NCBI GenBank assembly: GCA_017449065.1
Contig: JAFSKF010000019.1
Location: 56,952 to 120,951 of the forward strand
Direction: 5' to 3'
Origin: Bacteroidales bacterium
Lineage (GTDB): Bacteria; Bacteroidota; Bacteroidia; Bacteroidales; UBA3663
DNA length: 64,000 nt
Below, one piece after another: positions 26,818-35,115 of the stretch; position 1 is the first letter of the stretch, and every line of letters starts with the position of its first letter. Made by a program: the position numbers and the translations under genes. The notes under the pieces are model-generated. The model was not told the origin of the DNA and did no database searches. It saw nothing but the letters and a program-made list of their open reading frames with translations.

Positions 26818-26874
26818 AGGCAATGTGTTTACTCCCATAATGTGCTGTTTTTCGTAGCAAATATTGGCATTTTT

Positions 26875-26948
26875 CCAAAATCCCCAAATTTGCTGACTGA
26901 AGATTCATCTTTTAAGTAGTTTTTCTAATCAAGGGTCGCCGAGTGACT
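26875..26948 (+). repeat. imperfect direct repeat, copy A (upstream flank of the hip module)
   Basis: CCAAAATCCCCAAATTTGCTGACTGAAGATTCA... aligns with 28577-28641 (CCAGAATCACCATATTTGTTGATTGAAGATTCA...). Roughly three quarters of positions are identical by eye over the first 50 nt. Confidence 0.7.
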
Positions 26949-27098: not shown

Positions 27099-27302
27099 AT
27101 GGAAAAAACAAAATTATCGTCAGTTGTTAAAGCTTTGCGCAAGGAATATGGGCTTACCCAAGAAGACCTTGCCATGAAATCGGGAGTCGGGTTGTGCTTT
27201 GTGCGCAATTTGGAACAAGGGAAAGTATCGCTCAGAATGGATAAAGTGAACCAACTCCTCGACTTGTTTAATTACGAACTGACCGCAACGAAAAAGGTAT
27301 GA
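27099..27302 (+). CDS. XRE-family HTH protein (HipB-like)
   Basis: 67 aa with the HTH pattern LRKEYGLTQEDLAMKSGVGLCFVRNLEQGK. Its stop overlaps the next start (ATGA). Confidence 0.85.
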   Translation: MEKTKLSSVVKALRKEYGLTQEDLAMKSGVGLCFVRNLEQGKVSLRMDKVNQLLDLFNYELTATKKV

Positions 27303-27634
27303 GACAAGCCAAGATATACCGCAAAGGCATTTTTGCCGGCATCCTAACAGAAGATGGTGGTGAATATCGCTTCCGTTATGACAGTATGTATCTTGCACAA
27401 GAAGAAGCATTGCCAGTAAGCCTGACTTTTCCGTTGCAAGAAGAAGAGTTCGTGAGTCCTATTCTTTTCCCGTTCTTCGACGGGTTGATACCTGAAGGCT
27501 GGTTGCTTGATGTTGTCTTACGTAATACAGACATCAGTATTCTTGATCGTATGTCTCTTTTACTATTGTGTTGCAAAGAGTGTATCGGCTCCGTCAGTGT
27601 CGTTCCAATAGCTAATATAGAAGGTGAAGCGTAA
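27299..27634 (+). CDS. HipA N-terminal-subdomain protein (HipS-like)
   Basis: 111 aa. AKIYRKGIFAGILTEDGGEYRFRYDSMY...FPFFDGLIPEGW matches the HipA N-terminal 'couple_hipA' pattern, here encoded as a separate gene. Confidence 0.8.
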   Translation: MRQAKIYRKGIFAGILTEDGGEYRFRYDSMYLAQEEALPVSLTFPLQEEEFVSPILFPFFDGLIPEGWLLDVVLRNTDISILDRMSLLLLCCKECIGSVSVVPIANIEGEA

Positions 27635-28572
27635 TGTGTAAGTGTTTGTACTGCTATCAGGAATTGGAAGAAGGTCAAAAGGACTTTCATCCTCAATGTG
27701 TCAAAAAGTTCTTTGGAACAAAAGAACTACCGCTATTGGAATACCGGCAAAAAGAACTCGACCGACTGGCTGAGCAAGTAATCCGCGCTCAGACTTCACT
27801 AACTGGTGTTCAGCCCAAATTATCATTGAATCTCTCCAAACATGAAGGTTGCAGCCGGTTGACGGTCGTAGGTCTATGGGGCGATTTTATCTTCAAACCA
27901 CAGACAGATGACTATCCACAGCTGCCAGAAAATGAAGATTTGACTATGCATTTGGCCGAAGCTGCCAAGATAAATGTCGTGCCTCATAGCCTTATCCGAT
28001 TGGCAGATGGGCAACTTGGTTACATCACCAAGCGAATCGATCGTACGCAAACCGGAGAAAAAATCGATATGGAAGACATGTGCCAACTGACACTACATCC
28101 CACAGAATACAAATATAAAGGTTCATACGAACAGATTGCTAAAACCATCGTTCAGTATTGCAGCACACCGAAACTCAACCTCACAAACTACATGCAGTTG
28201 CTGCTCTTCTGTTTTGTCTCTGGAAATAACGATATGCATCTGAAGAACTTCTCACTCTATCGGCCTTATAAAGATTATCTGCTGACTCCAGCATACAATC
28301 TTCTCAATGTAGCTATTGCCAATCCCAAGGACAAGGAGGAATTAGCTCTTCCGCTTTCAGGGCGGAAGACAAAGCTACGTTTAGAAGATTTCCTAAATGC
28401 AGCCAAAATAATGGGATTGGATGAAAATGTGGTTCTTCATCTCATCGCCGGTCTTCAAAAAGCTCTTCCTAAGTGGCAGGAGCTCATACATGCATCATTC
28501 TTGAGTGAGGATATGAAAAACAGGTATGAAGAGCTCGTCATATCCCGACTGTCGCGCTTGCAAACTCTGTAA
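27634..28572 (+). CDS. HipA-family Ser/Thr kinase-like protein lacking the N-terminal subdomain (HipT-like)
   Basis: 312 aa with the P-loop-like SLTGVQPKLSL and the catalytic loop GNNDMHLKNFSL. The next conserved motif reads LTPAYNLL rather than PxYD. The N-terminus has the Cys/His cluster CKCLYCYQ...HPQC. TAATG start coupling. Confidence 0.8.
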   Translation: MCKCLYCYQELEEGQKDFHPQCVKKFFGTKELPLLEYRQKELDRLAEQVIRAQTSLTGVQPKLSLNLSKHEGCSRLTVVGLWGDFIFKPQTDDYPQLPENEDLTMHLAEAAKINVVPHSLIRLADGQLGYITKRIDRTQTGEKIDMEDMCQLTLHPTEYKYKGSYEQIAKTIVQYCSTPKLNLTNYMQLLLFCFVSGNNDMHLKNFSLYRPYKDYLLTPAYNLLNVAIANPKDKEELALPLSGRKTKLRLEDFLNAAKIMGLDENVVLHLIAGLQKALPKWQELIHASFLSEDMKNRYEELVISRLSRLQTL

Positions 28573-28576
28573 AATT

Positions 28577-28641
28577 CCAGAATCACCATATTTGTTGATT
28601 GAAGATTCAAATTTGAAATAGTTATTTCCTATCGAGTGAGG
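28577..28641 (+). repeat. imperfect direct repeat, copy B (downstream flank of the hip module)
   Basis: See copy A. It starts 5 nt after the hipT-like stop codon. Confidence 0.7.
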
Positions 28642-31427: not shown

Positions 31428-31850
31428 TTATTCTTCCATATTATTATAAAGTTCTTCAAGCTTCTCCAATATAGGAGTGAACTTGTTTTCTATAATTCGA
31501 TTCACCTCGTTGCTCACTGTTTCGGTAAAGAACTTCATAAATTCTGGATCACCCTTTAGTTGTTTAAGAAATTCTTGGTAATCTATTCTTTGCGGTTTAG
31601 GATTATTCCACGTGTACCATGTTACAATAATGGATAACGCTGTCAATATCATCCCCATATTTTCCAGAGTTGCAACAAAATGTTGGTGCATACCTCCAGC
31701 ACCTATGTCTGGTATCACGGGAGGAAGTCCTTCTGAAATTCGGATTTCCATATTCTCCCTTTGCCTATGCGTAGTGGTCTCATACTCGTCAGGGAAAACA
31801 GACTCTGCTATTGTTTCTACTATTTCCCAGTTAATCTCTGATGTTTTCAT
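31428..31850 (-). CDS. hypothetical single-pass membrane protein (140 aa)
   Basis: Central hydrophobic segment MGMILTALSIIVTWYTW. Its start overlaps the stop of the protease gene by 4 nt. Confidence 0.6.
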   Translation of the reverse strand: MKTSEINWEIVETIAESVFPDEYETTTHRQRENMEIRISEGLPPVIPDIGAGGMHQHFVATLENMGMILTALSIIVTWYTWNNPKPQRIDYQEFLKQLKGDPEFMKFFTETVSNEVNRIIENKFTPILEKLEELYNNMEE

Positions 31851-33097
31851 ACCTCAACAAATTTTTTGTTAATGACGTTCTTTATATAGTCTGATTTAGC
31901 GATAACTGTACGTGCAGTTGTCCTCTTTATTATTACAACGAACAGCATCGGTATAATGCAAAGGAAAATGCACCACCATGGGAATTCAACGGCTTGGATT
32001 ACTTTGTCTGTTGCAAACCAAGCTACAAACATAAGTAACGGAAACACCAAATAGTACCAACCTGAGTTCCAAGTTGTAATCTTATCCTTAAAAGACTCTA
32101 TCCTTGGTGAATTCAATACTTGTTTTCTTACAATTTCAATTCTTTTTATTAATACTTTATTATCGGGATTATATTTCCTTTCAGAAACGAGACGCTCATT
32201 AAGTTTCGCAACGTATTTGTTCTTGTCATCTTCGCTCATAAAACGAGAAATGCTATATATCTCGTTCAACAAATAGCTATATTTACCATAATTCCTTAAT
32301 TGCTGGCTATCTAATATTTCAGCGATATACTTTTTGGCAAAAATCCTCGCCATTTTCCTCATTTTCTCTTTTCCGTAAAGGTGTTCAAATATCATGCAAG
32401 CCATTGCATCTGCCCCCATCTCAACTCTGGACTTTACATAGGCAGAGCTACAGATAATCATCAAAGCCATATATAATAGTAAACCCATAAATAGCAACCA
32501 CCATGAGTGGGACAGAACGGAAAAGATGACAATGATTAAGGAGAGAAGAGACGAATGTAATCTTGTAACAATTTGTCTCTGGCCAATTAAACTGTGTCCA
32601 ATGCAATGCGACATTTCGTGGAGCATTGTAAAGCGGTCGTTGTCTTCCTCTCCGTCAAAATCTTTATGAAGTAGAACAACTGATTCGTCATTGAAAAATG
32701 AATAAGATGTTGGCTCTCCACTTATAGCCTTACTAACATATACAGAAATATCTTTTGTTCCACACCTATTTCCCTCGTTATAAACCTTGAATTTTTGCAT
32801 TTCCTGCATATATAATTCTTTCAAGTTAGCATCTACGTCATCCAATTCAGAAAACAACAAGAAGTCGTGCCGCATTTCTGAGAATGTTTGTTTATATTTT
32901 AGCCATGCTGCATATACTAATATTGCGCCATCAAGACCAATACATAGCGGAAGTAGAAATGCGATAGAGTGGTTACTTACGGTCAATACTGCAATTATAA
33001 TAGATATGCAGAAAACGGACAAGACATTGTCCCACAAGGACGATAATTCATATAACATCCATTGAATCCAATTGTGAATAGTCTGTTGCATAATCAT
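31847..33097 (-). CDS. polytopic membrane zinc metalloprotease, M48/HtpX-like
   Basis: 416 aa. HEMSH (HExxH) is followed by two TM segments and then SRVEMGADAMA (an ExxAD third-ligand motif). There are two further hydrophobic segments at each end. Confidence 0.7.
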   Translation of the reverse strand: MIMQQTIHNWIQWMLYELSSLWDNVLSVFCISIIIAVLTVSNHSIAFLLPLCIGLDGAILVYAAWLKYKQTFSEMRHDFLLFSELDDVDANLKELYMQEMQKFKVYNEGNRCGTKDISVYVSKAISGEPTSYSFFNDESVVLLHKDFDGEEDNDRFTMLHEMSHCIGHSLIGQRQIVTRLHSSLLSLIIVIFSVLSHSWWLLFMGLLLYMALMIICSSAYVKSRVEMGADAMACMIFEHLYGKEKMRKMARIFAKKYIAEILDSQQLRNYGKYSYLLNEIYSISRFMSEDDKNKYVAKLNERLVSERKYNPDNKVLIKRIEIVRKQVLNSPRIESFKDKITTWNSGWYYLVFPLLMFVAWFATDKVIQAVEFPWWCIFLCIIPMLFVVIIKRTTARTVIAKSDYIKNVINKKFVEV

Positions 33098-33402
33098 TAG
33101 TTTGTTAAATTATGATATGAATGCAAGTGTAGGGGTACAAAGAATGGCGTGGCCACTCTTATGCACTTACCTAAGGGCATGTATGATATTTGGAATTCCT
33201 ACTACTGTAATAATATTGAAGAATTATGTTTAAGAATAATACCAGCAGACCGTCAACCACGACGAAAGCGCCTTTGCCGCTATTTGCAGCAAAAGAAAAT
33301 GTGAATCCAGTAAACTTTGAGAAGAAAGAGAGAAAAGGAACTACAAAATTTCTTGGAACTATGAAAGTGTCGCTGATTATCTCGCGCGAAGACCACAATT
33401 TA

Positions 33403-33411
33403 CCCCCCCCC
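33403..33411. repeat. homopolymer C9 (G9 on minus strand)
   Basis: Nine consecutive C residues read directly from the sequence. The tract lies between two out-of-frame minus-strand ORFs. Confidence 0.95.
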
Positions 33412-33536
33412 GTTCAGGTTTCGCAACCGAGGTTGCTAAGGGATTCGAAATTCTGAAGTCTGCGTTAATCATTTGTTGACTTGATTTAGGGATTTCACAT
33501 AATGCCGAATGGGATGCATCCTATTCAACATCGGTG

Positions 33537-33544
33537 CAAAAGTA
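33537..33544 (-). promoter_or_regulatory. candidate -7 promoter box (TACTTTTG on minus strand)
   Basis: The reverse complement of caaaagta matches TAnnTTTG. It lies upstream of the short ORFs and the six-gene operon. Confidence 0.35.
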
Positions 33545-33590
33545 TGCCATTATTTTGAATTGACCAAATTTTTAGCCGACTTTTTGCGTG

Positions 33591-33598
33591 CAAATATA
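33591..33598 (-). promoter_or_regulatory. candidate -7 promoter box (TATATTTG on minus strand)
   Basis: The reverse complement of caaatata matches TAnnTTTG. Confidence 0.35.
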
Positions 33599-33622
33599 TG
33601 AAATAATTTCGTTCTTTGCAAG

Positions 33623-33704
33623 AAATCGGGAATTTTTCCCTGTTTTTGACCTCTAAAATCGGGAATTTTTCCGGAATTTTCATGGTAGAAATCGGGAATT
33701 ATTC
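33623..33704. repeat. 3 phased direct repeats AAATCGGGAATT(T/A)TTC with a 33-bp period
   Basis: Copies start at 33623, 33656 and 33689. A conserved core of about 16-17 nt alternates with about 16 nt of variable sequence. Confidence 0.9.
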
Positions 33705-33770
33705 TTAAAAACGAGTTCCGCAAGTTTTTCCTGCTGACGTTCGGAAAAGCATCCCCGGGGCAAGAAAGAT

Positions 33771-33851
33771 TTGCGCGATGCCTATGAAAAGTTTGCGCGA
33801 TGCCTATCAAACAATTGCGCGATGCCTATCAAACAATTGCGCGATGCCTAT
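33771..33851. repeat. 4 phased direct repeats TTGCGCGATGCCTAT with a 22-bp period
   Basis: Copies start at 33771, 33793, 33815 and 33837, each an exact 15-mer. Copies 2-3 are full 22-bp units, TTGCGCGATGCCTATCAAACAA. Confidence 0.95.
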
Positions 33852-33900
33852 GCCGCAAATTTTCCTCTTCTTCGTCCTGTCTTTTCCAGAATAAGACACA

Positions 33901-35115
33901 CTATTTCAGGCGTTGGAAATAGAGGAGGGAGTCGGAGCTGTTTTCGCGAATACATTGCATCTCTTGCAGCATCACATCGGGACGGAAAGGAGTGGTTTCG
34001 AAGTAGTCGCTGATGGCCGTGTTGCAGCCGAAAACATTGCCTCGCTGTGCAGCCCGGAACTGCGCGAAAAGAGGATTCTGACCGATAAATTCCGAGAGTG
34101 TCCAATTCCGGTCGGGAGAGAAATATTTGATGATCCAGACATCGGCGGCTTGTGCCTTTTCGAAAACAGCTTCAGGCGAGAGCGCCAAAGAACCGCTATG
34201 CGTATCATCCGACCAGGGATAGCTGAATCCGGCGTCCTGATATAACCAGCTCATAGTGCTGCGTCCGCCAGGCACATACCAGGTGGCGCCGTAGGGCGAA
34301 TCGGCAAGCAAGGTGGGATGCGCCACCGAATCGGATGCTTCAGACAAACGCAGGTATTGCGTTTCCACCAGTTTGAAAATAGAATCTGCTATCGCTGCCT
34401 TATCCACTAAGCGTCCGTAAAAACGAACCCATTCCGCGCGTCCGAGGGGCGTGTTTTCCATGTAGTCGGCACAATAGATGACAGGCAGGTCGGGCAAAAC
34501 CGCTTGCATGACGGCTTGCGAGCTGCCTTCATACGGAGAAATCCAGATGGCTTGCGTTTGTGCCGCCAGCATCACCTCGACGTTAGGGGCAGTGGCTAAT
34601 CCGCCGTCCAGAATGGCGCCATTATCCAATGCATCCCGTAGCGTGCGCGAACTGATATAATCCGCATCGCACAGAACGCCGATGGTCTCCATGGCATCGA
34701 ACTCCTCCAGCAGGCGGGCGTGACAACAGGCCGTGACGGTTTGCCGCTGCAAAGGTGTGACAAGCACCTGCATTGGGCCGTATTCTTCTACCAGTTCATC
34801 GAGGAAGGCATCGGAAACGGTAGCCGAATCGGCCGCAGGAACCAAAATGTATTGGATAGCCAGCTTTCTGCCTTGCCAGGGATTCTGAATGCGACACAGG
34901 GTAAGGTGGTGGGGCAGATTCTGCATCTGAAGGAGAGAGGCATAGCGGGTGGAGGCTTCTGTGACGGCTAACGGTTCTTCCGGCTGGCGTTTGTGGCAGG
35001 AGACCGTCAGGAAAGCTGACAAAATAAAAGCAACTACGGCATAGAATGGGGTTCTGTGGCGAAAGTTTGCTTTCTTTTTTCTATTATGATTCGAAAAAAA
35101 CATTTTTCTATACAT
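33901..35115 (-). CDS. periplasmic-binding-protein-type ABC substrate-binding lipoprotein (BtuF/iron-siderophore-like)
   Basis: Lipobox FLTVSC. The overall pattern resembles the PBP type 2 (PF01497-like) family. No adjacent permease or ATPase. Confidence 0.6.
   Translation of the reverse strand: MYRKMFFSNHNRKKKANFRHRTPFYAVVAFILSAFLTVSCHKRQPEEPLAVTEASTRYASLLQMQNLPHHLTLCRIQNPWQGRKLAIQYILVPAADSATVSDAFLDELVEEYGPMQVLVTPLQRQTVTACCHARLLEEFDAMETIGVLCDADYISSRTLRDALDNGAILDGGLATAPNVEVMLAAQTQAIWISPYEGSSQAVMQAVLPDLPVIYCADYMENTPLGRAEWVRFYGRLVDKAAIADSIFKLVETQYLRLSEASDSVAHPTLLADSPYGATWYVPGGRSTMSWLYQDAGFSYPWSDDTHSGSLALSPEAVFEKAQAADVWIIKYFSPDRNWTLSEFIGQNPLFAQFRAAQRGNVFGCNTAISDYFETTPFRPDVMLQEMQCIRENSSDSLLYFQRLK

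What the first reader, a model, noticed from the sequence alone, without database searches (positions are those of the whole stretch)
33171..33472. G9 homopolymer bridges two out-of-frame short ORFs: possible slipped-strand switch for a small membrane protein
On the minus strand, an ATG at 33472 opens MINADFRISNPLATSVAKPERGGVNCGLRAR*, whose stop is at 33377-33379. The RGG codons are the G9 tract (33403-33411). Adding one G or losing two would shift reading into the 75-aa ORF listed at 33171..33398. That gives a product of about 100 aa with two strongly hydrophobic segments, FVVPFLSFFSKFTGFTFSFAA and AFVVVDGLLVLFLNIILQYYY. The fused ORF would end 74 nt upstream of the protease gene on the same strand. 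A homopolymer sitting exactly at the junction of two frames is the classic signature of a contingency locus. Such a long open frame is also less expected in AT-rich DNA.
Basis: partly seen in the sequence, partly recalled or inferred. Interest (0 to 1): 0.55.

Follow-up and report, generated by a model that had tools for sequence, protein, structure and literature searches.

The report
Hypervariable poly-G tract in operon leader
A run of nine G's in an uncultured gut Bacteroidales genome really does change length (9, 10, 11, 12) between otherwise identical strains, but the "small membrane protein" it would switch looks like non-coding leader sequence, so the tract more likely tunes (or merely decorates) the long untranslated leader of the accessory operon downstream.

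Summary
G9 sits at 33403-33411 (minus strand) inside a 31-codon ATG ORF, and one extra G fuses it to the 75-codon frame, giving 100 aa. The tract is hypervariable. Four near-clonal metagenome contigs (0-4 SNPs in 5-9 kb) carry G9, G10 (twice) and G11. A second strain carries G12, and one contig ends inside the tract. Ten other homopolymers nearby never vary.

The fused "membrane protein" is not supported:
- It has no homologue in 5.8 billion clusters or 1.84 billion representatives.
- Its codon usage looks non-coding.
- The frame crosses a recombination junction (33244/33245). Beyond it the second strain has unrelated DNA and no second hydrophobic segment.

The tract lies about 120 nt downstream of a consensus Bacteroidetes promoter. 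It is in a roughly 430-nt leader fused to a captured cassette that has lost its own promoter and most of its native structured leader.

Best reading (about 0.45): a slipped-strand tract in a leader uORF that sets how far ribosomes travel down the leader. That would gate the downstream operon by polarity or attenuation.

Main rival (about 0.3): a functionless mutational hotspot.

Interest is modest.

The parts
33403..33411 (-). Poly-G tract. G9 here; G10, G11 and G12 in other assemblies.
33377..33472 (-). Leader uORF in the G9 phase (31 aa plus stop). It is 24 aa at G11 and 100 aa at G10. The ATG has an A-rich context (CAACAAATG).
33171..33398 (-). Frame-2 open stretch (75 codons) entered from the uORF at G7/G10/G13. 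It has no internal ATG, and a TGA stop lies just upstream of the tract in this frame.
33537..33568 (-). Promoter P2. Bacteroidetes-type -33 TTTG (33568-33565), a 20-nt gap, then -7 TACTTTTG (33544-33537). The inferred TSS is near 33530, about 58 nt before the uORF ATG.
   Evidence: Conserved in L010. The consensus itself is from general knowledge of Bacteroides promoters.
33591..33598 (-). Promoter P1 -7 box, TATATTTG.
33319..33340 (-). A 22-nt pure pyrimidine run, TTCCTTTTCTCTCTTTCTTCTC, on the mRNA strand. It is the longest Y/R run in the window and a candidate Rho-loading (rut-like) site. It is translated only in the G10 phase.
   Evidence: Identical in L010. The rut role is inference.
33244..33245 (.). 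Recombination junction. Upstream DNA (to the PBP gene) is shared with strain L010. Downstream is a different cassette in each strain.
33098..33225 (-). 3' remnant (about 40%) of the native structured leader of the 416-aa gene family, including the invariant hairpin AAGAGTGGC-CAC-GCCATTCTT at 33160-33140. The native promoter and the 5' helix strands are missing.
31847..33097 (-). First gene of the downstream operon: a 416-aa multi-pass membrane protein with invariant HExxHCxxH, E226 and D230. The family is uncharacterised (11 clusters).
33621..33704 (.). Three GGAAAAATTCCCGATTT-type partly palindromic sites spaced 33 bp apart, directly upstream of P1. Putative regulator operators.
33765..33851 (.). 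22-bp tandem repeat. Four copies here and in L003; three in L001, L011 and L010.
33226..33456 (+). Antisense 76-aa ORF that the public gene calls chose. Its C-terminus changes with tract length (76/84/71/90 aa). Probably spurious.
   Evidence: (no promoter motif on the + strand)

Best explanation
The poly-G run is a slipped-strand hypermutable tract inside a short upstream ORF in the long (about 430 nt) 5' leader of a strain-variable accessory operon. Transcription most likely starts at a consensus Bacteroidetes promoter (P2, -7 box 33544-33537). Ribosomes start at ATG 33472 and meet the tract after 21 codons. Tract length then decides where they stop. At G9 or G11 they stop within 0-8 codons, leaving 279-302 nt of untranslated leader. 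That stretch includes a 22-nt pyrimidine run and a conserved hairpin. At G10 they translate through that stretch and stop 73 nt before the first operon gene, and 10 nt before the hairpin. I infer that the extent of leader translation gates read-through into the operon. The route would be Rho-type polarity, hairpin attenuation or mRNA protection, making the tract a heritable, reversible high/low switch for the operon. On this view the peptide itself is irrelevant. Shown: the hypermutability, the frame arithmetic, the promoter motifs, the loss of the cassette's own promoter and leader, and the absence of any sign of protein coding. Inferred: that the uORF is translated and that downstream expression depends on it.
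For: (1) Hypermutability. L011 versus the window has 0 mismatches in 5,255 nt, and L001 has 4 in 9,251 nt. The only indels are the tract (G10, G11 versus G9) and a 22-bp repeat unit. The allele-specific antisense products P0001, P0003 and P0004 correspond exactly to C9, C10 and C11. Strain L010 has G12. Contig L003 ends inside the tract. Ten other homopolymers of 6-8 nt in the same 9.2 kb never vary.
(2) Leader position. The only two TAnnTTTG boxes in 33000-33950 are on the minus strand, upstream of the uORF. There is none between them and ATG 33097, none on the plus strand, and the same holds in L010.
(3) Lost native control. All five other members of the 416-aa family carry their own -7 box about 300-320 nt upstream plus a covarying structured leader. 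The window copy lacks that promoter and the 5' 60% of that leader, so it probably depends on the upstream promoter.
(4) Frame openness without sequence conservation. Frame 2 stays open across the junction into unrelated DNA in both strains, ending 73 nt and 44 nt before the first cassette gene. By my rough estimate this has about a 0.03 chance. In L010 the frame selected by its G12 is open for 73 codons because two of its few substitutions remove the only two stops. My rough estimate for that is 0.01-0.04.
(5) The peptide is not conserved or protein-like, which fits a uORF whose translation, not product, matters.
(6) The downstream cargo is membrane or secreted in both strains: an HExxH membrane protein plus a signal-peptide protein here, and a BACON lipoprotein, a C10 peptidase and a Big_2/dockerin protein in L010.
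(7) There is precedent for heritable DNA switches in leaders acting through Rho-dependent termination (fim, C. difficile flgB) and for uORF-dependent Rho attenuation (PMC12360218).
Against: There are no expression data of any kind, so TSS, uORF translation and Rho dependence are all inferred. Only two strain backgrounds are available, so the frame-openness statistics are post hoc and weak. In L010 two of the three phases give long uORFs, which blurs a clean ON/OFF picture. The local RNA fold around the tract is no better than shuffles (z = -0.19). This is the only long G/C tract in 64 kb, so the organism shows no sign of a general SSR-based strategy. SSR phase variation is not an established mechanism in Bacteroidales: in the one phase-variation review I read every Bacteroides passage found concerns invertase or DNA-inversion switching (or a 1990 temperature-dependent phase shift), and three literature searches returned no report of SSR switching in this group. 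The cassette may have a non-canonical promoter of its own (ATTCTTTG near 33143). All tract lengths come from short-read metagenome assemblies. L010 has only about 3x coverage.
Confidence: 0.45

Rival explanations
1. Neutral hotspot. The G run is a hypermutable but functionless homopolymer in a non-coding leader or intergenic spacer. The flanking open frames are by-products of composition (the pyrimidine-rich strand has few stops), and tract length has no phenotypic effect.
For: A G9 is not improbable by composition (12% of shuffles). There is no coding signal on either strand and no homologues. The RNA fold is unremarkable. It is the only such tract in 64 kb. The segment after the tract is more diverged between strains (7 of 156 nt) than the PBP gene (7 of 515 nt).
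Against: The tract persists, and is even extended by a T-to-G change, in a second strain. It sits exactly between a consensus promoter plus ATG and a cassette that has lost its own promoter. Frame 2 is open through unrelated DNA in both strains, and stops have been removed in L010's in-phase frame.
Confidence: 0.3
2. First reader's model. The fused 100-aa ORF is a genuine small two-pass membrane protein, switched ON at G10 (G7, G13) and OFF otherwise.
For: The frame arithmetic is right, and a natural G10 allele with the intact 100-aa ORF exists. A promoter and an ATG in good context lie upstream. One segment (residues 66-86) has a transmembrane-like hydropathy of 2.1. Small proteins often lack homologues.
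Against: There are zero homologues in two exhaustive searches. The codon-usage score falls in the lowest 2.3% of real gene chunks. The C-terminal third, including half of the only transmembrane-like segment, is encoded beyond the recombination junction and is replaced by unrelated, non-hydrophobic sequence in L010. In L001, 3 of the 4 SNPs in the frame are radical replacements: Y to D, S to R and H to Q. Between the window and L010, 4 of 7 substitutions in the frame are non-synonymous (read by eye). The frame was never called as a gene.
Confidence: 0.1
3. Sequencing or assembly artefact. The tract exists, but the apparent length differences reflect Illumina homopolymer error or assembler choice rather than biological variation.
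For: All data are short-read metagenome assemblies. L010 has about 3x coverage. Poly-G is error-prone on two-colour chemistry. A contig break at the tract could reflect a quality drop.
Against: Three different lengths appear in long (120-128 kb), otherwise identical contigs, and G10 is seen on two contigs. No other homopolymer in 9.2 kb differs. L001's four T-to-G differences fall in a stretch whose counterpart in L019 and L017 is G-rich (GTAGAGAGGGG, CCAGACTCGCCCC; read by eye), which hints at real alleles rather than errors. That stretch aligns poorly, so this point is weak.
Confidence: 0.07
4. Promoter-spacer switch, or the plus-strand gene. Either the tract lies between -33 and -7 elements of a downstream promoter (porA/opc style), or the plus-strand 76-aa ORF that gene callers chose is real and the tract varies its C-terminus.
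For: A weak GTTG-21 nt-TAAATTGT arrangement brackets the tract. The plus-strand ORF was called in every assembly, with 71/76/84/90-aa variants.
Against: The putative -7 box matches only 4 of 6 defined positions, and its TA is destroyed in L010. No TAnnTTTG occurs on the plus strand. The plus-strand ORF starts in cassette-specific DNA, has a different N-terminus in L010, has non-coding-like codon usage, and has no homologues beyond this locus.
Confidence: 0.05

Closest known systems
Intragenic poly-G/poly-C contingency loci of Campylobacter jejuni, Neisseria meningitidis, Haemophilus influenzae and Helicobacter pylori (SSR phase variation; review PMC11868660)
   Same: A G/C homopolymer of 9 or more. 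Length changes of +/-1 among otherwise identical genomes. The tract lies early in an ATG-initiated ORF, so one of three lengths gives a long product. Surface or secreted genes are nearby.
   Different: Here the ORF is not a recognisable or conserved protein and lies in a leader. The host is an uncultured Bacteroidales, a group in which the phase variation I found described in this library runs through DNA invertases. There is only one such tract in 64 kb.
Heritable leader switches that act through Rho-dependent termination: E. coli fimS (OFF orientation) and the C. difficile flgB switch (cited in PMC12360218)
   Same: A stochastic, reversible DNA change in the 5' leader is proposed to decide whether transcription reaches the operon.
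   Different: Those switches are site-specific inversions that expose a rut site. Here the change would be a homopolymer slip that alters uORF length. Rho involvement is untested.
uORF- or leader-peptide-dependent Rho attenuation (mgtA/mgtCBR leaders, toiL-topAI; PMC12360218)
   Same: The extent of translation of a short leader ORF controls access to downstream untranslated, pyrimidine-rich RNA.
   Different: In the known cases a physiological signal (Mg2+, proline, antibiotics) modulates ribosome progress. Here a mutation-prone tract would hard-wire it.
Promoter-spacer homopolymers (N. meningitidis porA, opc, nspA; e.g. PMC6389960)
   Same: A homopolymer upstream of a surface or membrane protein gene that modulates expression.
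   Different: No conserved promoter elements flank this tract.
Bacteroides invertible promoters (invertons) controlling capsule, SusC/D and other surface loci
   Same: Same bacterial order. Variable expression of accessory surface loci from an upstream switch.
   Different: No inverted repeats flank the promoter and there is no invertase nearby. The mechanism is entirely different.

Membership tests
SSR (slipped-strand) contingency locus | Homopolymer or short repeat long enough to slip (about 8 or more for G/C) | tested here: met
   G9 at 33403-33411, with G10-G12 elsewhere
SSR (slipped-strand) contingency locus | Repeat number varies among closely related genomes far faster than the flanking sequence | tested here: met
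   Three lengths among four contigs with 0-4 SNPs per 5-9 kb. Ten control homopolymers are invariant.
SSR (slipped-strand) contingency locus | Within-population heterogeneity and reversibility of tract length | not testable with these tools
   There is no access to reads. A contig ending inside the tract is only suggestive.
SSR (slipped-strand) contingency locus | Length change alters expression of a functional gene (ON/OFF or graded) | tested here: inconclusive
   Frame changes in the uORF are certain. A functional target is inferred (the operon) or doubtful (the peptide).
Small membrane protein gene | Conservation or homologues of the product | tested here: not met
   0 hits in 5.8e9 clusters and in 1.84e9 representatives. 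The C-terminus is unrelated in L010.
Small membrane protein gene | Host-like codon usage | tested here: not met
   Score -0.035, against 0.19+-0.10 for real genes. This is the lowest 2.3%.
Small membrane protein gene | Transmembrane helices retained across strains | tested here: not met
   Only one segment passes the KD threshold. It spans the junction and is lost in L010.
uORF-dependent transcription attenuation / Rho polarity | uORF inside a long 5' leader downstream of the operon's promoter | tested here: met
   By motif only. P2 and P1 lie upstream, with no other TAnnTTTG before ATG 33097, and the cassette's native promoter is absent.
uORF-dependent transcription attenuation / Rho polarity | C/U-rich, G-poor rut-like stretch or terminator hairpin that is exposed when the uORF is short | tested here: inconclusive
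   A 22-nt pyrimidine run at 33340-33319 and a hairpin at 33160-33140 are present. Their function is unknown.
uORF-dependent transcription attenuation / Rho polarity | Dependence on Rho and on uORF translation | not testable with these tools
   Needs reporters, bicyclomycin or Rho depletion, and start-codon mutants.
Promoter-spacer SSR (porA type) | Tract lies between conserved -33/-35 and -7/-10 elements | tested here: not met
   Only a 4-of-6 match to the -7 box, and it is destroyed in L010.
Known RNA families (Rfam 15) / tRNA-derived att site | Covariance-model or ARAGORN match | tested here: not met
   No tRNA. No Rfam hit at gathering threshold, and only chance-level hits at E of 1.7 or more.

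The most novel reading that the evidence does not exclude
A homopolymer-tuned leader uORF acts as a mutational ON/OFF gate in Bacteroidales, working through translation-coupled Rho-type polarity. It sits at a chromosomal cassette dock, where unrelated surface or secreted gene cassettes are captured behind one shared promoter-uORF-polyG module and lose their native riboswitch-like leader. This would be slipped-strand phase variation in an order for which I found only invertase-based switching described, and a new way of wiring it (uORF length rather than the coding frame of the target).
Probability: 0.3. Interest if true: 0.55.

Novelty: new member of a known kind. Interest (0 to 1): 0.35.

Why it matters
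If the tract gates the operon, gut and rumen Bacteroidales would have a second, invertase-independent route to phase variation. Inverton-focused surveys such as PhaseFinder cannot see it. It would also be an example where a homopolymer acts through a leader uORF rather than through the target's own reading frame. In practice, homopolymer-length calls in metagenome assemblies at such sites carry biological signal. Gene callers also mis-annotate them, here as a spurious antisense ORF whose "protein" changes with the tract. If the tract is functionless, the locus is simply a mutational hotspot of little consequence.

Tried and rejected
- tRNA-derived att site, suggested by TTCGAATCC upstream of the tract: ARAGORN finds no tRNA or tmRNA in the window.
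- Known ncRNA or riboswitch: Rfam gives nothing at gathering threshold, and only chance-level hits on 33000-34000.
- Special RNA structure around the tract: a three-way fold is predicted, but its z-score is -0.19 and tract length barely changes it.
- Repeated or mobile element: the leader is single-copy in the window.
- More alleles by DNA pattern: two JGI metagenome scans and one GTDB-representative scan returned nothing. The nearest GTDB species has only 56% PBP identity and a different downstream gene order (nitroreductase, FecCD, LeuRS).
- Poly-G upstream of homologous 416-aa genes elsewhere: none. The tract therefore belongs to the locus, not to the cassette.
- Defence-island idea for the low-GC cassette next to hipBA: no PADLOC or NCBIfam hits.
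- Promoter-spacer model and plus-strand ORF: rejected (see rival explanations).
- Literature: three searches returned no report of poly-G or SSR phase variation in Bacteroidales.
- One script mis-registered the L001 SNP positions by one base. Those coordinates were instead read from the alignment and the ruler.

Full report
**What is there.** On the minus strand an ATG at 33472 opens MINADFRISNPLATSVAKPERGGVNCGLRAR, with its stop at 33379-33377. The RGG codons are a G9 run at 33411-33403. A 75-codon open frame (33398-33171) lies one frame over. One added G, or two removed, gives a 100- or 99-aa ORF that ends 73 nt before ATG 33097 of a 416-aa gene. The run is the only G/C homopolymer of 7 or more in the 64-kb window. 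Composition alone would still produce a G9 in about 12% of shuffles.

**Source.** The window is part of ENA scaffold XIEF21-1_SAMN15829935_METAG-scaffold_254, which is 120,662 bp. It comes from an uncultured Bacteroidales. The nearest GTDB representative shares only 56% identity in the neighbouring periplasmic-binding protein.

**The tract is hypervariable.**
- Exact-protein look-ups retrieved the same locus from other assemblies.
- L011 (ERZ28018862) has 0 mismatches to the window over 5,255 nt. L001 (ERZ27256811) has 4 mismatches over 9,251 nt.
- In each case the only indels are the tract (G10 and G11 against G9) and one unit of a 22-bp tandem repeat.
- The three "proteins" that gene callers predicted on the opposite strand (P0001, P0003, P0004) are exactly the C9, C10 and C11 translations. 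The G10 form occurs on two contigs.
- A second strain, L010 (98.6% identical in the PBP gene), has G12 because a T-to-G change extends the run.
- Contig L003 is 100% identical to the window up to the tract and terminates inside it.
- Ten other homopolymers of 6-8 nt in the same 9.2 kb show no length change.

The caveat is that all of this rests on short-read assemblies, and L010 has about 3x coverage.

**The fused ORF does not look like a gene.**
- The 100-aa product has no homologue among 5.8 billion clusters.
- The 75-aa part has none among 1.84 billion representatives read in full by phmmer.
- On a codon-usage log-odds score trained on the window's long genes, the fused ORF scores -0.035. 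Real 100-codon chunks score 0.19+-0.10, and only 2.3% score as low. Shadow ORFs score -0.11+-0.13, and 30% score as high.
- The mRNA strand is 38% T and contains the longest pure pyrimidine run in the window, TTCCTTTTCTCTCTTTCTTCTC at 33340-33319. This by itself yields Phe/Leu/Ser/Pro-rich "hydrophobic" translation.
- Only one segment (residues 66-86) passes a transmembrane-like hydropathy threshold.

The frame also crosses a recombination junction. L010 matches the window from the PBP gene through the tract to 33245. It then continues into unrelated DNA encoding a BACON lipoprotein, a C10 peptidase and a Big_2/RCC1/dockerin protein. The last 24-25 codons of the frame, which include half of the only transmembrane-like segment, are therefore strain-specific and non-hydrophobic in L010. 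In L001, three of the four SNPs in the frame are radical replacements. No assembly's gene caller chose this frame, even at G10. The antisense ORF that was called fares no better. It has no promoter motif on its strand, its start lies in cassette-specific DNA, its codon usage looks non-coding, and it has only self hits.

**Context: a leader.** The 800-bp gap between the PBP gene (33901-35115) and the 416-aa gene contains, in order on the minus strand:
1. A 22-bp tandem repeat (33851-33765; 4 or 3 copies).
2. Three partly palindromic GGAAAAATTCCCGATTT sites spaced 33 bp apart (33704-33621).
3. A -7 box TATATTTG (33598-33591).
4. A full Bacteroidetes-type promoter: TTTG, a 20-nt gap, then TACTTTTG (33568-33537).
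5. The uORF ATG, about 58 nt after the inferred start site.
6. The tract, the pyrimidine run and the junction.

These two are the only TAnnTTTG motifs on either strand in 33000-33950. L010 keeps both and likewise has none closer to its first cassette gene.

**The 416-aa gene has lost its own control region.** The protein has an invariant HExxHCxxH motif and belongs to a small uncharacterised family. Elsewhere the gene has its own -7 box about 300-320 nt upstream and a conserved structured leader. The window copy retains only the last 40% or so of that leader (about 33225-33098, including the hairpin at 33160-33140). It has lost the native promoter. None of the other copies has a G tract. The tract therefore belongs to a locus-specific promoter-uORF module onto which different cassettes have been joined.

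**Mechanism (inferred).** Tract length sets uORF length:
- 31 aa at G9 and 24 aa at G11. This leaves 279-302 nt of untranslated leader.
- 100 aa at G10, ending 73 nt from the operon and 10 nt from the conserved hairpin.

I propose that leader translation gates read-through into the operon. It could do so by masking the pyrimidine-rich stretch from Rho, by disturbing the hairpin, or by protecting the RNA. Two observations favour "translation matters, peptide does not":
- Frame 2 remains open through unrelated post-junction DNA in both strains, stopping 73 and 44 nt before the first gene.
- In L010 the frame selected by its own G12 is open for 73 codons, because two of its few substitutions remove the only two stops in that frame.

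Both are post hoc, with rough chance levels of 0.01-0.04 by my estimate. Precedents exist for heritable leader switches acting through Rho (fim, C. difficile flgB) and for uORF-dependent Rho attenuation (PMC12360218). I give this reading about 0.45.

**Rivals.**
- A functionless hotspot (about 0.3). This fits the absence of any coding or RNA-structure signal (z = -0.19), the single occurrence in 64 kb, and the somewhat higher divergence after the tract.
- Assembly or sequencing artefact for the length differences (about 0.07).
- Promoter-spacer or plus-strand-gene models (about 0.05). The candidate -7 box is weak and is destroyed in L010.

**Comparison with known systems.** The tract meets the structural and population criteria of an SSR contingency locus. 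The functional criterion is untested. The one phase-variation review I read (PMC11868660) mentions Bacteroides only in connection with invertase or DNA-inversion switching (plus one 1990 temperature-dependent phase shift). Three searches returned no report of SSR switching in this order. It is best filed as a new, unproven member of a known kind, and interest is modest. The most interesting by-product is the covarying leader RNA of the 416-aa family. It has 70 pairs, 91% of cells paired, and 16 pairs with double compensatory changes, against 6.3+-1.8 in shuffles and 1-5 in slid controls. It has no Rfam match. It looks like an undescribed cis-regulatory RNA.

Noticed in passing
L019:1195-1494, L015:1935-2252, L012:3697-4003, L024:381-687, L026:20-328; remnant in window 33098-33225 (minus strand; hairpin 33140-33160): A conserved leader RNA of about 260-300 nt lies upstream of every other member of the 416-aa HExxH membrane-protein family. 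It starts just after a TAnnTTTG box, and its sequence blocks are near-invariant although the proteins are only 42-96% identical. The consensus has 70 pairs, with 16 pairs showing compensatory double changes (0 of 500 shuffles reach this; slid controls give 1-5). There is no Rfam match. It is a candidate new riboswitch-like cis-regulatory RNA. The window copy has lost its 5' 60%.
   Followed up: partly
window 33244/33245; L010:3516-5077: A strain-variable cassette junction. The same promoter-uORF-polyG segment is joined to the HExxH-protein operon in the window. In a 98.6%-identical strain it is joined to a BACON lipoprotein, C10 peptidase and Big_2/RCC1/dockerin operon. The low-GC block (about 28.6-33.2 kb, 38% against about 50% GC) is the window's cassette.
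   Followed up: partly
window 33765-33851: A 22-bp tandem repeat (unit ATAGGCATCGCGCAATTGTTTG on the minus strand) downstream of the PBP gene varies between 4 copies (window, L003) and 3 copies (L001, L011, L010). One Logan contig ends inside it. It is a second length-polymorphic repeat in the same regulatory region.
   Followed up: partly
window 33621-33704: Three GGAAAAATTCCCGATTT-type sites with a palindromic core (GGGAAAAATTCCC), spaced exactly 33 bp apart. They abut the -33 region of the P1 promoter and look like operator sites for an unknown regulator.
   Followed up: no
window 33215, 33201, 33183, 33174: The only four substitutions between the window and L001 in 9.2 kb are clustered in 42 nt. 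All are T (window) to G (L001) on the minus strand. They fall in a stretch whose counterpart in the L019/L017 native leader is G-rich, although that stretch aligns poorly. This could be a small gene-conversion patch or relaxed decay of the orphaned leader.
   Followed up: partly
window 33319-33340 (minus strand): A 22-nt pure pyrimidine run, TTCCTTTTCTCTCTTTCTTCTC, is the longest purine or pyrimidine run in the 64 kb. It lies 63 nt downstream of the G tract and is identical in strain L010.
   Followed up: partly
window 26873-26924 and 28575-28626: 52-nt direct repeats (81% identical) bracket the hipA-N/hipA toxin module (27299-28572, plus strand). This suggests the module was inserted or duplicated as a unit.
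   Followed up: no
L017:1860-3392, L018:1766-3298, L019:2773-4305, L020:2705-4180: In four contigs carrying a 96%-identical copy of the 416-aa gene, an IS element (DDE_Tnp_1_2 / DUF772 transposase, 510 aa) sits immediately after its stop. In the window this is where the overlapping 140-aa gene follows.
   Followed up: no
L007:9203-9209: A distant relative (47% PBP identity) has a C7/G7 run 57 nt after its PBP homologue, on the opposite strand relative to the window's tract. Probably coincidence.
   Followed up: no
window 33226-33456 (+): Public gene calls annotate a spurious antisense ORF across the tract. Three frame-shift versions of one non-gene (71, 76 and 84 aa) sit together in one 90% protein cluster. 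The 90-aa form in L010 has a different N-terminus and forms its own cluster. This is a small illustration of how hypervariable homopolymers inflate protein catalogues.
   Followed up: yes
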